A stretch of DNA of 44,789 bases, from sequence record PZ379181.1; one strand, 5' to 3'. Position numbers and translations under genes: made by a program. Every line of letters starts with the position of its first letter. Positions within the stretch are counted from its first letter, which is position 1. This document shows, one piece after another, positions 1 to 44,789 of the stretch. A model generated the notes under the pieces. That model saw only the letters and a program-made list of their open reading frames with translations. It had not been told where the DNA came from and ran no database searches. The stretch comes from a phage.

Positions 1-83
1 TGTTTAACCGCATAGTTCTGCATGATGGGTTAGGTTTTCGCATTTATCGTGAAACGCTTTCGCGTTTTTCGTGCGCCGCTTCA
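1..83. repeat. Left copy of 83-bp inverted repeat (partner 44677-44759)
   Basis: Reverse complement of 1-83 equals 44677-44759 at 82/83 positions (mismatch 7/44753); verified base by base. Confidence 0.9.
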
Positions 84-265
84 CCGTATAGCATTGATTC
101 CTTTGCGAAGAAGACGGCACGATAGTTGCTATACTGAGATTGACCATCTTTATCCTTGTAACGCTCACTTAAATCAACCGCGTACATCTTCCAACTGCCA
201 TTTGCATTCTGACCTTCTTTAGTGAACGGAGCGCGACGGATAACACCAGTGATTACATGACTCAT
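44..265 (-). CDS. SSB-like OB-fold protein, short (73 aa), possibly truncated
   Basis: ATG start; N-terminal pattern V.ITG...DKDG...YRAVFFAK resembles the first half of bacterial SSB; last 13 codons lie inside the inverted repeat. Confidence 0.4.
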   Translation of the reverse strand: MSHVITGVIRRAPFTKEGQNANGSWKMYAVDLSERYKDKDGQSQYSNYRAVFFAKESMLYGEAAHEKRESVSR

Positions 266-2196: not shown

Positions 2197-2510
2197 TTCT
2201 GTATCTCTCTGTTTGCTTGCTTGCTTGCTTTCGATGGTTTAACTATATATTCAGCGCCGCACCCAGTCCAATTGGTTTCGCCAATCGTTGATTTAAGTTT
2301 ACGCGTGAATTCTTGTAATTCCGTGTGTACATTGGAACTAGTTACGTTTTTTGGTACCTGAGCCAAGCTATAGCTCAATGTAAATAGTGCGTATATCATG
2401 TATATCATTTATTGCTGAGGGTGCATTGGTATAGCTACCGCGCAATACTGTATAAATCCACATGATATTAAAATTATAACCGAAACACTCCATAAGAGCA
2501 GTTACATGAT

Positions 2511-2590
2511 ATACATAGTAATATATATAATAATAATAATAAGAGTAAAAGGTTGATATATATATATATTTTAATGTAACCAATGCGTAA
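2511..2590. repeat. AT-rich block with (ATA)n tract, copy A
   Basis: About 85 percent identical to 30296-30373, same orientation; both lie in divergent intergenic regions. Confidence 0.8.
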
Positions 2591-2666
2591 ATTGGCGTAA
2601 CATTGCGTATATCATTTTTCGCGGATGAGATTGCATACATCGAGTTACATCGGTTACGCGTAAACA

Positions 2667-4735: not shown

Positions 4736-7700
4736 TTACCACACTCCAACTACAACCCTTCCACCATTCGGTAAATTAACTGTAATTCCATTATTGTTAA
4801 TCTGAACAGTGTTGTTGGTTCCGTTAAACGCAAAGTTGCCGTTACTTGCGTACAGACTACCCCTTACAGTTGCATTGTTAAGTTCCGCACTGCCTGACTT
4901 ATCAATGGCCCAACCCTGAGAACCAGCCACGTAGTTATTAGATTGAATCCGGTTACCAATCTTCGCGTTAGTGATTGAACCATCCTGAATCACTGCGCTT
5001 TGAATGAATACCTGATTACCTTCAACTACGAAAGGCAATGACCACTGACCGGATCCAGAGCTAATGCCGTTACTGATTGCTAACCTGTTAGCATCAAAGA
5101 TGACCTGACTACGAACATTGCCATCAGAACCAGTTAGCTCCATACTCATGCCAGAACTGTACTCAACGCCATTGTATTTGAGGCCAAGTTTAATCCCGTA
5201 CTGAGCACCAATTGAATCGGCAGTAACGTAAGTGTCCAACTTCTCATTTAACGCAGCCTCATTATCACCTAGCCTTGCAGATAAAGCAGTGTCCGCAGTG
5301 GTCCTTGCTTGCGTCTCTTCCGCTAGCGCCGTATCAATCCTTGTCAATGAAGCTACAATCTCATCATCAATCTGCGCCTTAAGCTGCGTCAGAGCCTCTA
5401 CGCGAGCCCTTTCTTCATCGGCGATAAGATTCACAGCCTGAACAAATTCGGCCTTCCTCTTGCCGTTTTCCTTCGTCATTCTACGCACGTCACCATCATT
5501 AGCCAGGGCGTTCTCAATTATTGATTCCGCTTGCGCCTGAATAGCTCCGTTTGACTCAATGGCATTCTGTTGGAGATACTTGAACCCATCTGAGTTTTCT
5601 ATATCAACCTTAATATCACCAATGATTGACGACACATCATCGCTTGCCATACCCCTTACAAAATCAGTCCATGGTGAGACGTTACCAATCTTGTCAATCA
5701 GTCGCGCCCTGTACCAGATGACCTTTCCAGCAGGAAGTGTAGTATGCCAGTACTCGTAACTCGGGTAAGGCACCAGAGTCAGAAGGCTAGCATTCTCTGG
5801 TGTATAAGTACCATCACCATTGTCGGCTACTTGCTGCAATTCAGTGTATGACGTATCGGCTGAGTTTTCAGGAAATCCCCACTTAACCCTAATGCCGAAT
5901 ATTTCATCATCTGAAGCGGTGATTACTGTAGGTGAAGAAGGGGTCCCAATCTTGCCTGTGAGGCTTACTGAAACAATGTCAGACCATGCGGATACGTTTT
6001 CAGTATCAGAAACGGCCCTTACGCGAACCTGGTAAATTCCGGCATAGATACCTTCAATATCAACCTCTGTGCTTGCTGTGCGCGGCACGTTAATCCAGTT
6101 TCCGTTCTCCTTGCGCCACTGTACCGTGTAGGTTTTCGCGTACTGAACCTTGTCCCACGTGATTACCATTGTCTCAACTGATAAACCCTGAACAACCTTA
6201 CTGTAACTGCTAACCTGAACATTCTCGGGTGCCAGTAATGTATCTGGCTCCACGATTGAAGTTGGCCTGTCCTGAATGTTTACGCCGTAATCAATCTCGT
6301 CGTATTTGTTCGGGTCGTACTCAACTGCGGTAATCGTGTAACCAAACGCATCATCTCCATCGCTGTCTGCTTTTTGAATACCGGTCACAACATATTGCTG
6401 AAGAGCAAGATTTTCCTTATCAATCGCAAATACTGTGTCAGGCTGAGGAGTAAAGCTAAACGCTGTATTAAGTTGCAGCGTCATACCATCTTCAGATACA
6501 GATGCAATGGTCCTGTACTCCGGCATTCCATCAGGCTTGTTTATTAGAATCCTGTCGCCAGCAGTAGCATCAATCTTAAATGGCACAAAAACTTGCAACC
6601 CACTTACTGACTCGATACGACCAGAAAGGTTAAGGGTGTAGTTGCTAGACCATGCCTGGTCATTAACTGCAATAACCTCACCAATCATTGGAATCATACC
6701 TTCCAGACCAGTAGTGAAACTAATAGTCTCGCTGCGAATGTTCGTCTTTAATAACCAGCGCCCGCGGCGGTTTGCCTCACTCCTGCGAGTACATCCAATA
6801 GCTGTAAGGTCGACCGGGTTGTAACCAAAACGCCTTGTTGCCTCTAACTCGAATACTGGCTCAACATCCTGTTGGTATGAGTTTTCAACGTCATCAAACT
6901 GAACGTTGGCAACCGTGTAAAGTGACTTATCGCTACCAAATGTACGGTTGAACAATCCATCAACAACGTTGTCATTGGTGAATACGTACGATGGTTGACG
7001 CGGCTTATCGACAACAATCCCTATCTGCTCGCCGTCATAGAATGTCAGCCCACGGAAGATAGAGCAAATATCACGGATTACCTGATATGCTTCAACTTTC
7101 TGCTGAATGACAACATCACACAGGTAGCGCGGCTCAACTCCACCCTTACCATCTGGAACCATCTGGTCACAGAATTGCGCCGCCTCATACAGACCCCACT
7201 TATCAATAGTAATGCCAAGCTCTCGCTGGTCAAGTCCGTAACGCTGATTCGTCACCAAGTCGTAAAGAACCCACGCCGGGTTATTGGAATACGCCATCTT
7301 AAAGGTGCCGTTCCAGGTTCCGCTGTAAGTCCTTGTCTCTGGGTTGTAGTTAGTTGGAACGCGAATCAACTTCCACTTCTTCTTGATTGAAATCGTCGGG
7401 ATTCCGTTAGGGAAGAGGTCAGAACTGAACTCAACGTAAACCAGCGCTGTAAGTGGGTAGCGGAATTTCGCATCAATTACTTCCTGATAGGTCGTAATTT
7501 GCATATTGTTAACCAGCGTCGAACTTTCTGAATCTGCCGTGATCTTACGAACCCTCACCAACGCACTCGAGAACTCAGCAGGAAGGTTAACCCTGATACT
7601 TCTGTCGTACCCGCTAGTTGTCTTGCCATTAGCTACTCCGCGCGTGTACTCAGTGTATGTAGCGCCATCAACGGACAGGTCAATCGCATACTCGCAAGTG

Positions 7701-8161
7701 GTACCGTTAAGATCTCCGTTACTTTCCTGATTAATCAGACGAGGCCAAAACAGCTTAACCCTAATCGCTGATAGCTGGGTGTTATTAACAGCAATGATGT
7801 AAGGAGTTGAGTTTTTAATCTCCCTGTTCACTTGCACTTCCGAGTTAGCACCCTCTAGCCCGGCAATGTAATCCTGACTCTGTGTGCCAGGGCGAAACTC
7901 TGCCGTTACACCCTCGTAGTTGTATGTGCCATTCTGGTTCTGTACAGGAACGTCAGCAAGGTAAAGGTCCTTTAGGGAGAATGAGCTATCAACCTCACCA
8001 TCAGAAACAGCTAGCAAAACCTTAACCTTGTTTACGGATATCAGGTTATCAGGCTGCTCTACAGGTTGGTGCTGCTTTGGCTGTCCGCCCTTACTTCCAT
8101 AAATCTTAATTTCTTCCGCCATATCACATAGCTCCGCATTTGTTTTGACCATTTGTGCCAT
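4736..8161 (-). CDS. Central tail fibre / tail tip protein (lambda J-like)
   Basis: 1141 aa; last gene of tail operator after I/K/L/M; size and position match lambda J. Confidence 0.85.
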   Translation of the reverse strand: MAQMVKTNAELCDMAEEIKIYGSKGGQPKQHQPVEQPDNLISVNKVKVLLAVSDGEVDSSFSLKDLYLADVPVQNQNGTYNYEGVTAEFRPGTQSQDYIAGLEGANSEVQVNREIKNSTPYIIAVNNTQLSAIRVKLFWPRLINQESNGDLNGTTCEYAIDLSVDGATYTEYTRGVANGKTTSGYDRSIRVNLPAEFSSALVRVRKITADSESSTLVNNMQITTYQEVIDAKFRYPLTALVYVEFSSDLFPNGIPTISIKKKWKLIRVPTNYNPETRTYSGTWNGTFKMAYSNNPAWVLYDLVTNQRYGLDQRELGITIDKWGLYEAAQFCDQMVPDGKGGVEPRYLCDVVIQQKVEAYQVIRDICSIFRGLTFYDGEQIGIVVDKPRQPSYVFTNDNVVDGLFNRTFGSDKSLYTVANVQFDDVENSYQQDVEPVFELEATRRFGYNPVDLTAIGCTRRSEANRRGRWLLKTNIRSETISFTTGLEGMIPMIGEVIAVNDQAWSSNYTLNLSGRIESVSGLQVFVPFKIDATAGDRILINKPDGMPEYRTIASVSEDGMTLQLNTAFSFTPQPDTVFAIDKENLALQQYVVTGIQKADSDGDDAFGYTITAVEYDPNKYDEIDYGVNIQDRPTSIVEPDTLLAPENVQVSSYSKVVQGLSVETMVITWDKVQYAKTYTVQWRKENGNWINVPRTASTEVDIEGIYAGIYQVRVRAVSDTENVSAWSDIVSVSLTGKIGTPSSPTVITASDDEIFGIRVKWGFPENSADTSYTELQQVADNGDGTYTPENASLLTLVPYPSYEYWHTTLPAGKVIWYRARLIDKIGNVSPWTDFVRGMASDDVSSIIGDIKVDIENSDGFKYLQQNAIESNGAIQAQAESIIENALANDGDVRRMTKENGKRKAEFVQAVNLIADEERARVEALTQLKAQIDDEIVASLTRIDTALAEETQARTTADTALSARLGDNEAALNEKLDTYVTADSIGAQYGIKLGLKYNGVEYSSGMSMELTGSDGNVRSQVIFDANRLAISNGISSGSGQWSLPFVVEGNQVFIQSAVIQDGSITNAKIGNRIQSNNYVAGSQGWAIDKSGSAELNNATVRGSLYASNGNFAFNGTNNTVQINNNGITVNLPNGGRVVVGVW

Positions 8162-23112: not shown

Positions 23113-23127
23113 TAGCAAAACGTGCTA
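23113..23127 (-). promoter_or_regulatory. TAGCA-N5-TGCTA operator/promoter module (upstream of 117-aa gene)
   Basis: TAGCAaaacgTGCTA; its TAG is the terminase large-subunit stop codon. Confidence 0.5.
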
Positions 23128-24696
23128 TTTGATGCCAGCGAGGCGCATCATCCTCGATTTAGGGTCTTCTGCAATGTTCAGTACCAGGTTTACGGCCATT
23201 GTCAAACAGTCTATCTGGTCATCGTGAACATGTGAATCATCTGCCGTGAATGCCGCAATCTCCGTTAGCAAGCCATTAAGCCAAGTAGCAGACTCCGGAA
23301 GGATTACGTTACCAGCTTTAATCTGCGGCAATGCACTCATTACGCGAGTCAGCTTATCGTTATCCGGAACGTACGGCTCGATAGGCGTTCGCATAACCCT
23401 TCCGGCTGATTGAATCAGGCCAATACCAGAGGCTTTCTTCTCGATGATGATTTTACGAAGGATGCCATCTATCTGATTGGATGCCCTAGCCATCTTCTCG
23501 AAATCCAATAACTCAGCCTCGAGCTCAGGAGCTTCAAATTTACCGCGCCGCTGGTCAAGCAGATAAATCTTCCCATCCTTATAACCCCATAGCTGCATGA
23601 CGCTAAAGTCGCTGTAACTTTTGGTTGTCATCGCAGTATCAAGGACCATAAACCTGTAATCGTACTTAGCTGGCGGTCGCAGAGTGTCGCTAATGCGTTG
23701 AAGCCAGTCTACGTTAATCAGGTTGCCGCCAAGTGCTACTGGTTCTTGCTGATACTGGCTAAGGAATGTATAGCTATCAGAATCCCACATTGCAACTAGG
23801 TCGTGAACAGATTCCTTGCCAGGGAAATAGCTATAGTACCTAACACCATCACGCTCAATATATTCGCTTGATAGAACGTCATCAATGAATTGCCGCTTAA
23901 TCCAGTCAGGAAGCGTGTCGACGTAATCCTCAGTTACGAGCGCCGGTATCTTAATCAAGTCGAAGCTAATACCCATACCGCCATTCATCATGAACCACGT
24001 ACTATCATTCACATGAAGGCGCTGTTGGATAGAGATAATCGGCGTCGCCTTTCCTTTTACGGAGCTCGCCCTACGAGAGCGTATTGTATTCTTTAGCATC
24101 ACGTGATTGTTAGCGCGAAAAACAGCAGAAAGCATGTCGGCTGGTTTGTCAAAATCATCTAACAGAACCGCTCCGCTATATGAATCCGTTATATATCCAC
24201 CCCTTGCGCCGGTTATTTGGCCTCCAGCAGCCTTAGATATTGACTCAAACCGAACCTTACCAGACTCATCCAGAACTTGAAGCTCATCATCCTTGCACGT
24301 ACCGAACTTGCATGGGAATAACTCCTGGAACTCAACAGACTTAATCAGGTCCCGAACTCGCTTGGAGTTACGCTTAACAAGTGAGTCGGCAAACGAGATG
24401 TTCAGGTTCCTGACCTTCTTTAGCTTAACCATCGAGTAGGCCGGGAAGTGAATTGAAGCTATCTCTGTTTTTCCACTTCCTGGAGCGATGTTAATGATTG
24501 TGTCCTTGCGCTCACCAGCGATAATCTCGTCAATGATTCGACACAGGTATTTGTGATGCCAGTTAGGGATGTATCGCTCGCCCTGGGTAAGTTGGAACCA
24601 CACCCGCAAGAATCCCTCGAAACTATGAGTGGATATAGCCTTAACTGCCATCTTTTCTGCTGGCGTCATTTCTTCCCATACTAATGTTTCACTCAT
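23125..24696 (-). CDS. Terminase large subunit
   Basis: Start at ATG 24696 with GGAGAG RBS; Walker A NIAPGSGKTE; about 523 aa. Confidence 0.9.
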   Translation of the reverse strand: MSETLVWEEMTPAEKMAVKAISTHSFEGFLRVWFQLTQGERYIPNWHHKYLCRIIDEIIAGERKDTIINIAPGSGKTEIASIHFPAYSMVKLKKVRNLNISFADSLVKRNSKRVRDLIKSVEFQELFPCKFGTCKDDELQVLDESGKVRFESISKAAGGQITGARGGYITDSYSGAVLLDDFDKPADMLSAVFRANNHVMLKNTIRSRRASSVKGKATPIISIQQRLHVNDSTWFMMNGGMGISFDLIKIPALVTEDYVDTLPDWIKRQFIDDVLSSEYIERDGVRYYSYFPGKESVHDLVAMWDSDSYTFLSQYQQEPVALGGNLINVDWLQRISDTLRPPAKYDYRFMVLDTAMTTKSYSDFSVMQLWGYKDGKIYLLDQRRGKFEAPELEAELLDFEKMARASNQIDGILRKIIIEKKASGIGLIQSAGRVMRTPIEPYVPDNDKLTRVMSALPQIKAGNVILPESATWLNGLLTEIAAFTADDSHVHDDQIDCLTMAVNLVLNIAEDPKSRMMRLAGIK

Positions 24697-24712
24697 CCTA
24701 CTCTCCAAACTA

Positions 24713-25237
24713 TTACAGCTTACTAATCACAGACTCCAGCGCTTCCTTCATCGTATCGACGTCGTTAGCTGAAGAGTTGTTGCTGATGGTAATCTCCTGC
24801 GGCTTGTCGATTCCAAGCTCTTTGGAAATCATGCCAGGGTTAATGATGCCAGATGCTGCAAGCTGGTATTTCTGCTCGCGAATCACGGAATCAATGAACG
24901 CAATCACCTCATCATAACCAGCCGACTTCCTCCATTTCTCGATGGCGCTATGGGTGACACCGCAGTAAAGGCAGAATCCGGTTAGCGTGAAGACTCGTGG
25001 TTTGTGCACCAGGCTCTCTTTTACCACACCCTGGAAGCTGGCTGTCTCGATTGCCTTGATTGCCTGGTTCTCAGCCCATGAGAAGTATTTCACGGCGAAT
25101 TCAAATAGCTGTTCGGGTGTCATGCTTCGGTTTTTGGCTAGCGTTGTAATGTCTGAGTACTTTTTATTGTACATGGCTTTAAAGTTGCCAGAGCGGACCT
25201 TTTCTTGCGCCTGACTGGTGAAGTTTTCGTCTTTCAT
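24713..25237 (-). CDS. Terminase small subunit
   Basis: 174 aa immediately upstream of large subunit; AGGAGG RBS. Confidence 0.6.
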   Translation of the reverse strand: MKDENFTSQAQEKVRSGNFKAMYNKKYSDITTLAKNRSMTPEQLFEFAVKYFSWAENQAIKAIETASFQGVVKESLVHKPRVFTLTGFCLYCGVTHSAIEKWRKSAGYDEVIAFIDSVIREQKYQLAASGIINPGMISKELGIDKPQEITISNNSSANDVDTMKEALESVISKL

Positions 25238-30036: not shown

Positions 30037-30295
30037 ATTCGTTACTCCTGATTGGTTGCTCTTCGTTAAGATGAAACCATGGTATCATGAATATACGCGT
30101 TATCAAGTGTTATGTTGTGTTTATATCTGCATTGGTTACGCTTTTTGACCTCTCAGCCCAGCTATAGCTGGTGTAATTACCCTGTGTAAGATTTTACGCG
30201 GATTCGCCGGGGGTATGCATATGTATCTATATAGATAAAATTAGTAGTTTTCATAGAAAAACTATCGACCCATCCATACGACCAATCTACACCAT

Positions 30296-30373
30296 ATACA
30301 TACATATATATAATAATAATAATAATATAGTAAAAGGTTGATATATATAGATATTATTATGTAACCATTGCGT
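30296..30373. repeat. AT-rich block with (ATA)n tract, copy B
   Basis: About 85 percent identical to 2511-2590. Confidence 0.8.
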
Positions 30374-30521
30374 AATCTAGCGTGGTAGGCGTGTATGATT
30401 CTTCGGAAGCGCACCTCATATACACACCATAACTTCGATAACGTGTATATCCAAATTGGCTCAGCAAGAATCAAAATCAACTTGTATGGTAGTCCATCCA
30501 CCATTCATTCACCCCACATCG

Positions 30522-36569: not shown

Positions 36570-37043
36570 TTATTCTCCGTGAGATTCGCAGTCTTTTGGT
36601 AATTCTTTATATTCACAAACTGACATTACAGTATATCCGCAATTCCTTAGGTGACTGATAACATTAGGATTATCCTCAAAGATTATCACACTTGCTTTGT
36701 CACCATTACACAAATCATTTAGCCACATCTCTTTAATGATATAGTCATTTCTGTTATCCAATCTACTCCTCATATATATTCCATCATAATTAATATTATT
36801 ATACTGAAGCCATTCAAGCGTCATACATTCGACTTCGTCACTTCTTGAAGTCATGATGTAAACTGGCGATAACTCAGCTAACGCATTCATCATGTTTATC
36901 ATTGGAATTATCGGTGAATCTCCAGAACAGGCTCTATTGTAATCACTCCAACTTGAAGTCAAGTGAAGGTCACTAGATGGTAAGAGGTGGCTTCTATGTT
37001 CATTGTTAGCAATAGTTCCATCAATATCAAACACGTAAATCAT
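36570..37043 (-). CDS. HAD-family phosphatase
   Basis: 157 aa; N-terminal FDIDGT motif (DxDGT); ends 1 nt before kinase start. Confidence 0.65.
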   Translation of the reverse strand: MIYVFDIDGTIANNEHRSHLLPSSDLHLTSSWSDYNRACSGDSPIIPMINMMNALAELSPVYIMTSRSDEVECMTLEWLQYNNINYDGIYMRSRLDNRNDYIIKEMWLNDLCNGDKASVIIFEDNPNVISHLRNCGYTVMSVCEYKELPKDCESHGE

Positions 37044-41961: not shown

Positions 41962-42435
41962 ATGTGTGAAATTGACAAGCGAACTATCAACGGCAATAAC
42001 GGAACCATCCGCACGCAAGACAAGAAACAGCGCAAACGACCGTCAGGCTACTACGTATTGAAAGATGAAGTAAAGGCTGGGCTAAGAGCTCGTCTGGAGA
42101 TGGTTCTTGACTTCTACGGCACGAAGGCCAATATCGCCAAGCAGTTAAATGTATCTCACCAGACTGTAGAACAATGGTTTGATCGCGGTATGATTTCGGC
42201 TCGAGGCGCCCAGCGAGCACATAATGCGTACAAGAGAAATAAGGGAGGGTTCCGAGCTACTTTCTGCCGACCAGACCTGCAATTTGACGGTAACGGTAAG
42301 CCTCTGACGCTTAGATGCAAGAAGCGCCACATGCTACGCGTGGTTACTGAGGCTGAACTAGCAACAAAGCCACCTTGTCGACCGTGGCGCAAGAATAAGA
42401 TTGCCAACGAAGCCGCACGAAAAGCTAAAGAGTAA
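41962..42435 (+). CDS. HTH DNA-binding protein (Cro/YdaS-like), candidate regulator
   Basis: 157 aa; TKANIAKQLNVSHQTVEQWFDRG helix-turn-helix; basic C-terminus. Confidence 0.55.
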   Translation: MCEIDKRTINGNNGTIRTQDKKQRKRPSGYYVLKDEVKAGLRARLEMVLDFYGTKANIAKQLNVSHQTVEQWFDRGMISARGAQRAHNAYKRNKGGFRATFCRPDLQFDGNGKPLTLRCKKRHMLRVVTEAELATKPPCRPWRKNKIANEAARKAKE

Positions 42436-42486: not shown

Positions 42487-42966
42487 ATGAACTGGCATGA
42501 TTATTTTTACTATGTAGATGGCAAATTGCATTGGAAGATTAGCACTGCAAGACGTGTTAAGGTTGGCGATGAGTGCAACTCACTATCTACATCTGGCTAT
42601 TACAAAGTGTCTGTTAATGGCTTTAGGACTTATGTACATAGAGTTGTGTGGGAGATGTTTAATGGAGAACTTCAAAATGGCGACTACATTGATCATATAA
42701 ACCATAACAAATTAGATAACAGAATAGAAAACCTAAGAGTAACAACAAATCAAGGTAACTCAAGAAATTGCAAGCTTAGCGTTTTATCAACAACTGGTTA
42801 TTGTGGAGTGGCAAAGCTAAATCACGGAAAATTTAAGGCTCACATCAAGGTTGACGGCAAGCAGCTACACCTTGGGAACTTCGATACTCCAGAGCGGGCG
42901 TATAAAGTAAGAATTGAAGCAGAGGGAAAATACAACTTTCACGAAAATCACGGGTTAAGCAAATGA
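42487..42966 (+). CDS. HNH homing endonuclease with AP2-type domain
   Basis: YVHRVVW...IDHINHNKLDNRIENLR; GGAGAG RBS; ATGA overlap with primase start. Confidence 0.8.
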   Translation: MNWHDYFYYVDGKLHWKISTARRVKVGDECNSLSTSGYYKVSVNGFRTYVHRVVWEMFNGELQNGDYIDHINHNKLDNRIENLRVTTNQGNSRNCKLSVLSTTGYCGVAKLNHGKFKAHIKVDGKQLHLGNFDTPERAYKVRIEAEGKYNFHENHGLSK

Positions 42967-43886
42967 ATTACGATAAGAATGAAGTTATACCTAAGATGGC
43001 CGGATTGTGGAAATCATTTTATGCAAAGGAACTTGGTTGGAATGATAGACACCTAAGTAAGAAGCACGGACCATGCCCATACTGCTTTGGCACTGACAGA
43101 TTCAGATTTACCGACGAAATAGGCAGTGAAAAAGGAAATGGCGCGGCAGTTTGTTCGAAATGCGGAAGTGACTCCGGTATAGGATGGGTCATGAAGTGCA
43201 CTGGATTGTCCTTCGCTGATTCAGTAAATTTGCTTGGTGACTGGCTGAACTTAATACCAATTGAGGTTATAGTTAAAGCAAACAAGCAAGCATCAAGAAC
43301 GCAGCGTTATAAAATTTGCGCTCAAGTAGACCACAAGAAAGTTCTTGAGGTCATGGAGAGGACTCAGCGAGTTGAATCTAGTCCACTCACGACATACGAG
43401 GGTATTTATGACGAGTTTGGTTTTGATGTTGGTATAGCTAAAAATTGTTCAATGATTCACGCAATCCCTTGTTCGATGGTTTATGAAGATGGGCTTAGTG
43501 ATGAGTTCTGTAACGTAATGTTTATTGATGAGGATTCAAATGTTAAGTTCCTTGCTGGTGATTACACTCGTGATTCTGTTTCCGTTATTGGTTCTAAGCT
43601 GGATGATAGTTATACTTATGTTGTTGACAATTATATTGATGGCATACGTGTTCACCTTGCTACTGGTGGGCGCGAAGTGTTTGTTGCTTTCTCCTGTTAC
43701 AATATGGAGATGGTTATCCACCGCGACAAGTCAAGGAAGTTCAGAATTGCTTGCCGTGATTCTGATAGCGATATACTCGCTGTTGCTGACGATAGGGGTG
43801 TTGATGTTGTAGTTCCTAATGACGGTGAGTCATTTAAAACAGGCATACGAAAGAAAGTGTACAAAGCAAACGACTTGCTAAACTAA
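42963..43886 (+). CDS. DNA primase (zinc-ribbon type)
   Basis: 307 aa; CPYCFGTDRFRF...CSKCG zinc-binding motif near N-terminus; next to helicase region. Confidence 0.6.
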   Translation: MNYDKNEVIPKMAGLWKSFYAKELGWNDRHLSKKHGPCPYCFGTDRFRFTDEIGSEKGNGAAVCSKCGSDSGIGWVMKCTGLSFADSVNLLGDWLNLIPIEVIVKANKQASRTQRYKICAQVDHKKVLEVMERTQRVESSPLTTYEGIYDEFGFDVGIAKNCSMIHAIPCSMVYEDGLSDEFCNVMFIDEDSNVKFLAGDYTRDSVSVIGSKLDDSYTYVVDNYIDGIRVHLATGGREVFVAFSCYNMEMVIHRDKSRKFRIACRDSDSDILAVADDRGVDVVVPNDGESFKTGIRKKVYKANDLLN

Positions 43887-43908
43887 CCTCCTTCGGGAGG
43901 TTTTTTAT
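43887..43908 (+). terminator. Rho-independent terminator after primase gene
   Basis: CCTCCTTCGGGAGG hairpin followed by T6. Confidence 0.75.
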
Positions 43909-43934
43909 TGCCTGAAAGATGGTAGAATGAATTT

Positions 43935-43949
43935 TGGCAATTAGTGCTA
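43935..43949 (+). promoter_or_regulatory. Operator-like palindrome upstream of tail fibre gene
   Basis: TGGCAattagTGCTA, 22 nt before ATG 43972. Confidence 0.4.
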
Positions 43950-43971: not shown

Positions 43972-44679
43972 ATGGCAATTTATGACTTAGGAACAGCATC
44001 ACTAGCCTCAAATGGCGAGGTTACTGGCGTAGGTACTACATGGAAAGCACCTCTTACACTGATTCGTGTAGGTGCTACTATCATTTTCAAAACCAGCCCT
44101 CTGAAAATTTACACCATCTCTGAAATCATCAGCGATACTCAGGTTAATGTTTATAATCCAAGTTCTGAAACTGTTCCCGCTGGTACTGGTTACGCAATTC
44201 TTGCTCATGATGGAATTACTGTTCAGGGGTTGGCGCAGGATGTTGCGGAAACATTGCGTTACTACCAGTCAAAAGAGACTTCTATTGAAAGTCTACTGCA
44301 ATTTATCGGGCAAGATACTTTCGATTGGCCTCGCTTCGAGCAGCTTGCAACCCAATCAACCACTGGGGCTGCTGAGGCGCTAGCTAGTCAGATCGCTGCC
44401 GCTGAAAGTGCGAGTGCAGCCGCCTCAGCAAGAGACGCTACGACAGAGGCACGCGATGCTACTATTAGCGCAATTAATAATGCTGGTGACGCCGGAACAT
44501 TAGCAACGCTTGCATCTTACAATATAGCAAACTCAGTAGCAATTAGAGCTACCTCATTTGATTGGCAAACTTACGCATTTAAAAACGGCTCAAAAGTTTT
44601 AGTGTCAAAGTCAGCAATGGTAAACACTCCTTCTAGTGTAAATGACCTTATATCAAGTGCCGGTGCTAGTAAAAGCTGA
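43972..44679 (+). CDS. Tail fibre protein, N-terminal part only (235 aa)
   Basis: Ala/Ser-rich fibre-like N-terminal region; stop codon TGA 44677-44679 is the first 3 nt of the inverted repeat. Confidence 0.5.
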   Translation: MAIYDLGTASLASNGEVTGVGTTWKAPLTLIRVGATIIFKTSPLKIYTISEIISDTQVNVYNPSSETVPAGTGYAILAHDGITVQGLAQDVAETLRYYQSKETSIESLLQFIGQDTFDWPRFEQLATQSTTGAAEALASQIAAAESASAAASARDATTEARDATISAINNAGDAGTLATLASYNIANSVAIRATSFDWQTYAFKNGSKVLVSKSAMVNTPSSVNDLISSAGASKS

Positions 44680-44759
44680 AGCGGCGCACGAAAAACGCGA
44701 AAGCGTTTCACGATAAATGCGAAAACCTAACCCATCATGCAGAACTATGCGGCTAAACA
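44677..44759. repeat. Right copy of 83-bp inverted repeat (partner 1-83)
   Basis: See left copy; 30 nt of unique sequence (44760-44789) follows. Confidence 0.9.
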
Positions 44760-44789
44760 CCATCGAAATTATCTCATAACTGAACGAAG

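What the first reader, a model, noticed from the sequence alone, without database searches (positions are those of the whole stretch)
43972..44679. Tail fibre gene appears truncated to 235 aa
The ORF has a fibre-like N-terminal region but ends at the first stop inside the inverted repeat, far shorter than typical lateral tail fibres. The phage may have lost its distal fibre domain, or the locus is mis-assembled. An operator-like palindrome lies inside the ORF at 44537-44551.
Basis: partly seen in the sequence, partly recalled or inferred. Interest (0 to 1): 0.55.

Follow-up and report, generated by a model that had tools for sequence, protein, structure and literature searches.

The report
Untrimmed nanopore adapter truncates fibre gene
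The "235-aa tail fibre" is the first quarter of a normal long tail-fibre gene of a T1-like coliphage; the contig ends there, and the stop codon and the "inverted repeat" belong to leftover Oxford Nanopore rapid-barcoding adapter, so this is an assembly artefact and not biology.

Summary
The ORF is real at 43972-44679, and its N-terminus is a lateral-tail-fibre anchor. Its stop codon, TGA at 44677-44679, is not phage DNA. It is the first three bases of the 50-nt phage Mu right end, which is the MuA transposase substrate in Oxford Nanopore rapid kits.

Both window ends (1-83 and 44677-44789) carry the same adapter pointing outward: ONT barcode-flank, barcode BC24, then the Mu end. Phage DNA is only 84-44676.

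The phage is a T1-like siphovirus (Drexlerviridae, Braunvirinae). In five relatives the order primase, fibre, ssb (convergent), Erf recombinase, exonuclease is contiguous. The window is that circle opened inside the fibre gene on the right and inside ssb on the left, where about 60 of about 143 codons remain. Collinear relatives imply 1.9-2.4 kb is missing.

The 235 residues match positions 1-225 of a 939-position fibre profile and are collinear with 789-943-aa fibres. No distal part lies elsewhere in the window.

The palindrome at 44537-44551 is a 1-mismatch copy of a real recurring intergenic 15-mer, but it is not conserved and lacks the canonical context.

Verdict: artefact, low interest. 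The record needs trimming and gap closure.

The parts
1..83 (+). Left-end sequencing adapter. 1-9 is the tail of the ONT barcode-flanking sequence (..TGTTTAACC), 10-33 is ONT barcode BC24 (GCATAGTTCTGCATGATGGGTTAG), and 34-83 is the 50-nt phage Mu right end ending ..CGCCGCTTCA-3', joined to phage DNA.
   Evidence: 83/83 identity to the expected flank + BC24 + Mu-end layout. BC24 is listed in PMC9229804. The flank GCTTGGGTGTTTAACC is called 'SQK-RBK114 MuA cargo'. The Mu right-end adaptor used with MuA is given in PMC4005685. The 50-mer equals the last 50 bp of phage Mu.
44677..44789 (-). Right-end sequencing adapter, reverse complement of the same layout. 44677-44726 is the Mu right end, 44727-44750 is BC24, and 44751-44789 is a noisy barcode flank followed by 13 nt of the ONT adapter top strand (CTTCGTTCAGTTA).
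   Evidence: Exact 50-mer. The alignment to the expected layout has errors only upstream of the barcode flank. The ONT Y-adapter top and bottom sequences are given in PMC9965538.
44677..44679 (+). False stop codon TGA of the 235-aa ORF. It is the complement of the terminal ..TCA-3' of the Mu end and is not phage sequence.
43972..44676 (+). 5' fragment (codons 1-235, all phage-derived and in frame) of a long-form lateral tail fibre / tailspike gene. Residues 1-100 are the conserved virion-attachment module.
   Evidence: phrog_24092 positions 1-225 of 939, E = 6.9e-102. Collinear with the 816, 943, 936 and 789-aa fibres of OzMSK, G8, EC3a and 12210I. N-terminal conservation is described in PMC8594841.
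84..265 (-). 5' fragment (60 codons + 2 nt of about 143 codons) of the single-stranded-DNA-binding protein gene. It is cut by the left adapter, and its frame then runs about 12 more codons through adapter sequence to a stop.
   Evidence: Translation, phrog_44 match, and full-length ssb of 138-144 aa in relatives.
43885..43910 (+). Intrinsic-terminator-like hairpin plus T-run after the primase gene, upstream of the fibre gene.
   Evidence: (I8). A terminator is annotated at the same place in EC3a.
43935..43949 (+). Copy of the recurring 15-mer (TGGCAATTAGTGCTA), 22 nt before the fibre ATG. A copy is present upstream of the fibre gene in all five relatives.
44537..44551 (+). It is a 1-mismatch copy of the recurring 15-mer but lacks the conserved flanks and the downstream -10-like hexamer, and it is not present in relatives.

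Best explanation
The truncated fibre is an artefact of library preparation and assembly. The DNA was prepared with an Oxford Nanopore rapid barcoding kit. In that kit MuA transposase cuts the DNA and joins to each new 5' end an oligonucleotide made of a barcode flank, a 24-nt barcode (here BC24) and the 50-nt Mu right end. Reads starting at phage position 84 (+ strand) and 44676 (- strand) defined the two ends of a linear contig, and their adapters were not trimmed. The phage is a T1-like siphovirus whose genome map is circular. The contig is that circle opened between codon 235 of the lateral tail fibre gene and codon 61 of the convergent ssb gene, and the DNA between them is missing. An ORF finder reading the fibre frame runs into the adapter, whose first three bases are TGA, and reports a 235-aa protein.

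Shown: the identity and orientation of the adapter at both ends, the collinearity of the ORF with long fibres, the truncation of ssb, the synteny in relatives, and the absence of the distal parts elsewhere in the window.

Inferred: that the real phage carries a full-length fibre of roughly 790-940 aa, that about 1.9-2.4 kb is missing, and why the assembler failed to close the circle (unknown).
For: (1) The 50-mer at 44677-44726 (+) and 34-83 (-) is exact at both ends, with 0 expected by chance. It equals the last 50 bp of phage Mu (36668-36717 of 36717), and the similarity stops exactly there. PMC4005685 gives it as the 'Mu right-end adaptor' for MuA.

(2) Directly outside it on both sides lies GCATAGTTCTGCATGATGGGTTAG, which is ONT BC24. 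Next comes the tail of GCTTGGGTGTTTAACC, the 'SQK-RBK114 MuA cargo' flank. At the right end there are also 13 nt of the ONT adapter top strand. The left end matches the expected layout 83/83.

(3) Both adapters point outward, with ..TTCA-3' abutting phage DNA. This is the geometry of a tagmented fragment.

(4) Another public phage record, PQ065999, carries the same layout of Mu end, a 24-nt barcode and the reverse-complemented flank.

(5) In phiA2-1, EC3a, OzMSK, G8 and 12210I the fibre gene is followed directly by convergent ssb; four of them also show Erf recombinase, and two of those the exonuclease (12210I reaches its record end after ssb). That matches the window's right and left ends.

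(6) The ORF matches phrog_24092 positions 1-225 of 939 and residues 1 to about 224 of the 789-943-aa fibres, which then continue.

(7) ssb at the left end keeps about 60 of about 143 codons.

(8) tblastn with the relatives' full fibres and ssb finds no distal part anywhere else in the window.
Against: No reads are available, so the missing 1.9-2.4 kb is inferred from relatives and was not observed. The fibre locus is hypervariable, and short natural alleles exist at 151-410 aa, so the true length of this phage's fibre is unknown. I cannot explain why the assembler did not circularise a genome that should be circularly permuted.
Confidence: 0.96

Rival explanations
1. A genuine Mu or mini-Mu transposon insertion, natural or from in-vitro MuA mutagenesis, interrupts the fibre gene, so the phage really has a disrupted lateral fibre.
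For: The 50-nt sequence is an authentic Mu right end. MuA mini-transposons use exactly this end at both termini, as an inverted repeat.
Against: The sequence outside the Mu ends is an ONT barcode and ONT flank or adapter, not transposon cargo or Mu DNA. The two ends face outward at the contig termini and do not enclose an element. There is no 5-bp target duplication (AAAGC against CCGTA). The two junctions lie in different genes, fibre codon 235 and ssb codon 61, which are about 2 kb apart in relatives.
Confidence: 0.01
2. The phage naturally encodes a short fibre-anchor protein, like T1's 151-aa or phiA2-1's 362-aa protein, or has a real deletion running from the fibre into ssb, and the adapter merely happens to sit near the true end.
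For: Short natural homologues exist: T1 at 151 aa, EC147 at 173 aa, several at 290-410 aa, and phiA2-1 at 362 aa with a PF25670 C-terminal domain. Lateral fibres are thought to be dispensable on rough laboratory hosts (PMC8594841).
Against: The short natural forms diverge from this ORF after about residue 100 and end at their own stop codons. This ORF stays collinear with the 789-943-aa class up to about residue 224 and has no phage-encoded stop. The left end cuts ssb at codon 61, removing more than half of a conserved replication and recombination protein. Both junctions are transposase-adapter junctions, so they are cut sites and not natural ends.
Confidence: 0.03

Closest known systems
Oxford Nanopore rapid barcoding (SQK-RBK) adapter: MuA transposome cargo made of the flank GCTTGGGTGTTTAACC, a 24-nt barcode and the 50-nt Mu R1-R2 end
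   Same: The order, orientation and sequence of all three elements at both contig ends. The barcode is BC24. The terminal ..TTCA-3' abuts the insert.
   Different: The left copy is cut after 9 nt of the flank because the contig starts there. The right copy has basecalling noise in and upstream of the flank.
Long-form lateral tail fibre / tailspike of Braunvirinae T1-like phages (phrog_24092; for example OzMSK XLM52761 at 816 aa with a pectate-lyase-like domain, G8 XKC19997 at 943 aa, EC3a AQN32354 at 936 aa)
   Same: An N-terminal 100-aa anchor that is almost invariant, collinearity to about residue 224 at 70-81% identity, the same position after the primase with the same upstream terminator and 15-mer.
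   Different: Only the first 235 codons are in the window. The receptor-binding or enzymatic distal part is not present and so cannot be compared.
Natural short alleles at the same locus (T1 'tail fibers protein' at 151 aa; EC147 at 173 aa; phiA2-1 GP32 at 362 aa with PF25670)
   Same: The same N-terminal anchor module and the same locus.
   Different: They diverge after about residue 100 and terminate at phage-encoded stop codons. The window ORF follows the long-form sequence and terminates in adapter.
Adapter contamination in other deposited phage genomes (Proteus phage vB_PmiA_PM1 PQ065999; Streptococcus phage 36L PQ621707)
   Same: The same Mu-end sequence at or near record ends. In PM1 it is followed by a 24-nt barcode and the reverse-complemented ONT flank, and it lies inside an annotated hypothetical CDS.
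   Different: Different barcode. In PM1 the adapter is 129 nt inside the record and not at its very end.

Membership tests
ONT rapid-barcoding adapter (MuA cargo) | 50-nt Mu right end (R1-R2) with its terminal ..CA-3' joined to the insert DNA | tested here: met
   Exact at 34-83 and 44677-44726. Identical to Mu 36668-36717. Given as the MuA adaptor in PMC4005685.
ONT rapid-barcoding adapter (MuA cargo) | A 24-nt ONT barcode immediately outside the Mu end | tested here: met
   GCATAGTTCTGCATGATGGGTTAG at 10-33, and its reverse complement at 44727-44750. This is BC24 in PMC9229804.
ONT rapid-barcoding adapter (MuA cargo) | The barcode-flanking sequence GCTTGGGTGTTTAACC outside the barcode | tested here: met
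   Left end: the last 9 nt are exact, then the contig ends. Right end: present, with one mismatch and insertions in and upstream of it. An intact copy of most of the flank is seen in the same layout in PQ065999.
ONT rapid-barcoding adapter (MuA cargo) | ONT sequencing-adapter top strand further outside | tested here: met
   CTTCGTTCAGTTA, 13 nt exact, at the extreme right end (reverse complement). Compare the Y-adapter top ..TACTTCGTTCAGTTACG.. in PMC9965538. It is not present at the left end, where the contig is shorter.
Genuine Mu / mini-Mu transposon insertion | 5-bp target-site duplication flanking the element | tested here: not met
   AAAGC at 44672-44676 against CCGTA at 84-88.
Genuine Mu / mini-Mu transposon insertion | Two ends enclosing transposon cargo or Mu DNA | tested here: not met
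   The ends face outward at the contig termini. Similarity to Mu stops at 50 nt. What follows is ONT barcode and flank.
Drexlerviridae lateral tail fibre (long form, phrog_24092) | Conserved N-terminal attachment module (about 100 aa, ending ..VAETLRYYQS) | tested here: met
   40 invariant columns across 13 sequences, all within residues 1-100. phrog_24092 E = 6.9e-102. The literature describes the same pattern.
Drexlerviridae lateral tail fibre (long form, phrog_24092) | Position between the primase and the convergent ssb and recombination genes | tested here: met
   The primase lies directly upstream, and ssb, Erf and exonuclease lie at the other end of the window. These genes are contiguous in the relatives.
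Drexlerviridae lateral tail fibre (long form, phrog_24092) | Distal receptor-binding or depolymerase part (about 550-700 further residues) | not testable with these tools
   The DNA is not in the window. Reads or a gap-spanning PCR are needed.
Natural short fibre-anchor alleles (T1-type, 151-410 aa) | A phage-encoded stop codon, and divergence from the long forms soon after the anchor module | tested here: not met
   The stop is adapter-derived. The ORF stays collinear with the long forms to about residue 224, whereas the short alleles diverge at about residue 100.

The most novel reading that the evidence does not exclude
Two readings are not excluded. (a) The roughly 2 kb that is missing could hold a fibre distal domain unlike any in the relatives, because this locus is hypervariable. 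(b) The recurring 15-mer TAGCAC-N-AATTGCTA could be the binding site of a phage regulator, for example the T1 gp23-like HTH protein at 41962-42435. In about ten canonical copies its centre sits near -42 relative to a -10-like hexamer, the position typical of a class-II activator site. Under that reading the copy 22 nt before the fibre ATG, and possibly the intragenic copy at 44537, would act as operators. Neither reading rescues the 'truncated fibre' itself as biology.
Probability: 0.1. Interest if true: 0.3.

Novelty: not a real feature. Interest (0 to 1): 0.05.

Why it matters
It matters mainly for data quality. The record contains 196 nt of non-biological adapter. It lacks about 2 kb, including most of the host-range-determining lateral fibre and more than half of ssb, and it would yield two false protein predictions: a 235-aa 'tail fibre' and a chimeric ssb fragment running into adapter. 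Anyone inferring host range, fibre loss or 'terminal inverted repeats' from this sequence would be misled. The same contamination is present in other deposited phage genomes. A screen for the Mu-end 50-mer is therefore a cheap and useful filter for first-stage findings located at contig ends.

Tried and rejected
1. Real Mu or mini-Mu insertion. Rejected: there is no 5-bp duplication, the ends face outward, and ONT barcode and flank follow the Mu ends instead of cargo.

2. Natural terminal inverted repeats of the phage. Rejected: the repeat is 100% adapter. The 7 extra 'complementary' positions of the 90-nt arms are only 4/7 matched.

3. Natural short allele. Considered because T1 (151 aa), EC147 (173 aa) and phiA2-1 (362 aa) exist. 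Rejected because those diverge at about residue 100 and have their own stops.

4. Rearrangement, with the distal part elsewhere in the window. Rejected: tblastn with five full fibres and two ssb proteins found nothing beyond the terminal fragments.

5. Pfam on the 235-aa ORF gave no family. PHROGs was informative instead.

6. An exact-protein look-up in public assemblies found no record of this 235-aa product, so I could not trace the source or find a better assembly.

7. A literature search for the 15-mer motif gave no hits. The KanT1 Drexlerviridae paper does not mention promoters.

8. The sigma-70 scan around the fibre start found nothing above the shuffle expectation. Its minus-strand 'terminator' at 44696-44712 lies inside the adapter.

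9. One search failed because of a file layout problem, and searches used the wrong ssb frame. These were corrected.

Full report
**Observation.** The window has an ATG ORF at 43972-44679 on the + strand, 235 aa. The bases from its stop codon onward read TGAAGCGGCGCACGAAAAACGCGAAAGCGTTTCACGATAAATGCGAAAAC. This 50-mer occurs exactly twice in the window, at 44677-44726 (+) and 34-83 (-), with 0 matches expected by chance. It is the core of a terminal inverted repeat, arms 1-90 and 44670-44759. The ORF's TGA at 44677-44679 is therefore the first three bases of the repeat. All 235 sense codons (43972-44676) lie before it.

**What the repeat is.** The 50-mer is identical to the last 50 bp of phage Mu (AF083977, 36668-36717 of 36717), and the similarity ends exactly there. 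PMC4005685 gives the same sequence as the 'Mu right-end adaptor' used with MuA transposase. Directly outside the Mu end on both sides is GCATAGTTCTGCATGATGGGTTAG, listed as Oxford Nanopore barcode BC24 (PMC9229804). Outside that is the tail of GCTTGGGTGTTTAACC, described as the barcode-flanking sequence of the 'SQK-RBK114 MuA cargo' in a preprint that also states the rapid barcoding kit uses MuA transposase.

The left end matches the expected layout of flank, BC24 and Mu end at 83 of 83 positions. The right end matches it as a reverse complement, with errors only in and upstream of the flank. It finishes with 13 exact bases of the ONT adapter top strand. Both copies point outward, with the Mu ..TTCA-3' abutting the insert, which is the geometry of a tagmented fragment. 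The two junctions share no 5-bp target duplication (AAAGC against CCGTA). Another public record, Proteus phage PM1, carries the same layout of Mu end, 24-nt barcode and reverse-complemented flank. The 'inverted repeat' is therefore untrimmed ONT rapid-barcoding adapter, and phage DNA spans only 84-44676.

**What the phage DNA is.** The window is a T1-like siphovirus (Drexlerviridae, Braunvirinae), about 76-90% identical to its nearest relatives in the phage collection. It has terminase small and large subunits at 24713-25237 and 23125-24708 (both on the - strand), a central fibre J at 4736-8161, a primase at 42963-43886 and a gp23-like regulator at 41962-42435.

In phiA2-1, EC3a, OzMSK, G8 and 12210I the order is helicase(-), regulator, [HNH endonuclease], primase, fibre(+), then convergent ssb(-); Erf recombinase(-) follows in four of them and the exonuclease(-) in two of those, while the 12210I record ends just after ssb. 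The window's right end stops in the fibre gene. Its left end starts inside ssb, with 60 codons plus 2 nt of about 143, followed by Erf and the exonuclease. The window is thus the circular map opened between fibre codon 235 and ssb codon 61. Neither end is near the terminase/pac region.

**Is the ORF a natural short fibre?** Its first 225 residues match positions 1-225 of the 939-position profile phrog_24092, E = 6.9e-102. tblastn shows it is collinear with residues 1 to about 224 of the 816, 943, 936 and 789-aa fibres, at 70-81% identity, and those proteins then continue.

Short natural alleles of this locus do exist: T1 at 151 aa, EC147 at 173 aa, several at 290-410 aa, and phiA2-1 at 362 aa with PF25670. 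They share only the roughly 100-aa N-terminal anchor, which ends ..VAETLRYYQS and is invariant at 40 positions. After that they diverge and end at their own stop codons. This agrees with Maffei et al. 2021, who describe the Drexlerviridae lateral-fibre locus as hypervariable apart from the far N-terminus, the part thought to attach to the virion.

No distal fibre part and no ssb C-terminus is encoded anywhere else in the window, so the DNA is absent and has not been rearranged. Anchoring both window ends in the collinear relatives gives a missing stretch of 1945 bp (12210I), 2037 bp (OzMSK), 2385 bp (EC3a) or 2391 bp (G8). That would make the genome about 46.5-47 kb, within the family range of 43-52 kb.

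**Mechanism.** Shown: adapter at both ends, and both terminal genes truncated at adapter junctions. Inferred: MuA tagmentation attached flank, BC24 and Mu end to fragment 5' ends. Reads beginning at 84 (+) and 44676 (-) set the ends of a linear contig. The adapters were not trimmed and the circle was not closed. The ORF caller then read the fibre frame into the adapter and met TGA. The same thing happens on the other strand, where the ssb frame runs about 12 codons into the adapter before a stop. I cannot tell why the assembler failed to bridge the gap.

**The palindrome.** TAGCAATTAGAGCTA at 44537-44551 is a 1-mismatch copy of TAGCAATTAGTGCTA. That 15-mer occurs 12 times with at most 1 mismatch (0.00 expected) and 14 times with at most 2 mismatches (0.29 expected). 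Thirteen of the 14 copies are intergenic or at gene boundaries.

About ten copies share a fixed layout when read on the sense strand of the downstream gene: the 15-mer, 'aa', 22 nt, a -10-like hexamer, 'catcgaaacgaaagagag', an RBS and the ATG. This places the palindrome centre near -42 (inference). The copy 22 nt before the fibre ATG (43935-43949) is in the opposite orientation, but a copy is present upstream of the fibre gene in all five relatives.

The intragenic copy lacks the flanks and the -10 element. It has a mismatch in one arm, and it is absent at the homologous position in all four collinear relatives. It is statistically unlikely as a pure chance match, but nothing indicates that it functions. 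I leave it as unexplained and of low priority.

**Comparison, novelty and verdict.** The terminal repeats pass every testable defining feature of the ONT rapid-barcoding adapter. They fail the defining features of a real Mu insertion, namely a target duplication and enclosed cargo. The ORF is a member of the long-form Drexlerviridae lateral-fibre family by its N-terminal module and its position, but its distal part cannot be tested. The 'truncated fibre' is not a real feature. Interest is low and is limited to record curation and to a general warning about findings located at contig ends.

Noticed in passing
window 1015, 2667, 3415, 26854, 28199, 28881, 31786, 32566, 36016, 39438 (canonical copies); 30638, 38367, 43935, 44537 (non-canonical copies): A recurring near-palindromic 15-mer, TAGCAC-N-AATTGCTA (12 copies with at most 1 mismatch, 0.00 expected). 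The canonical copies have a fixed downstream layout: 22 nt, a -10-like hexamer, 'catcgaaacgaaagagag', an RBS and the ATG. The palindrome centre then falls near -42, which suggests a phage regulator site or a phage promoter class. Copies are also present in all five relatives. The literature search for the sequence found nothing.
   Followed up: partly
window 44-265 (- strand): The ssb gene is cut by the left adapter after 60 codons plus 2 nt (relatives have 138-144 aa). Its frame reads about 12 further codons of adapter before a stop, giving a second false, chimeric ORF of about 73 aa.
   Followed up: yes
L006 (PQ065999.1, Proteus phage vB_PmiA_PM1) 130-215; PQ621707.1 (Streptococcus phage 36L) 1-29: Other deposited phage genomes contain the same Mu-end adapter. 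In PM1 it is followed by a different 24-nt barcode and the reverse-complemented ONT flank, it lies 129 nt from the record end, and it sits inside an annotated 'hypothetical protein' CDS. The 36L record begins with 29 nt of the Mu end.
   Followed up: partly
window 42487-42966 (+): A 159-aa HNH-type homing endonuclease lies between the regulator and the primase. A corresponding gene is annotated in phiA2-1 and EC3a but is absent from OzMSK, G8 and 12210I, so it looks like a mobile insertion.
   Followed up: no
window 2503-2598 and 30288-30383: A 96-nt, very AT-rich direct repeat (76% identity), made of (TA)n and (TAA)n-like tracts followed by GTAACCA-TGCGTAA. Function unknown.
   Followed up: no
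window 44696-44712 (- strand): The terminator-like hit from the consensus scan lies entirely within the Mu-end adapter (CGTGAAACGCTTTCGCG followed by a T-run). It is a false positive created by the contamination.
   Followed up: yes
whole window: No record in the phage collection is more than about 90% identical over the regions tested (fibre region, recombination region, 12 kb of the structural module). The phage is probably a distinct Braunvirinae species that is not in that collection.
   Followed up: partly
P0001-P0003 (ENA contigs of 1.7-2.3 kb): The closest database homologues of the ORF (78-84% identity, 218-286 aa) all sit on very short contigs. They are probably truncated by contig ends too, so their short lengths should not be read as natural.
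   Followed up: no
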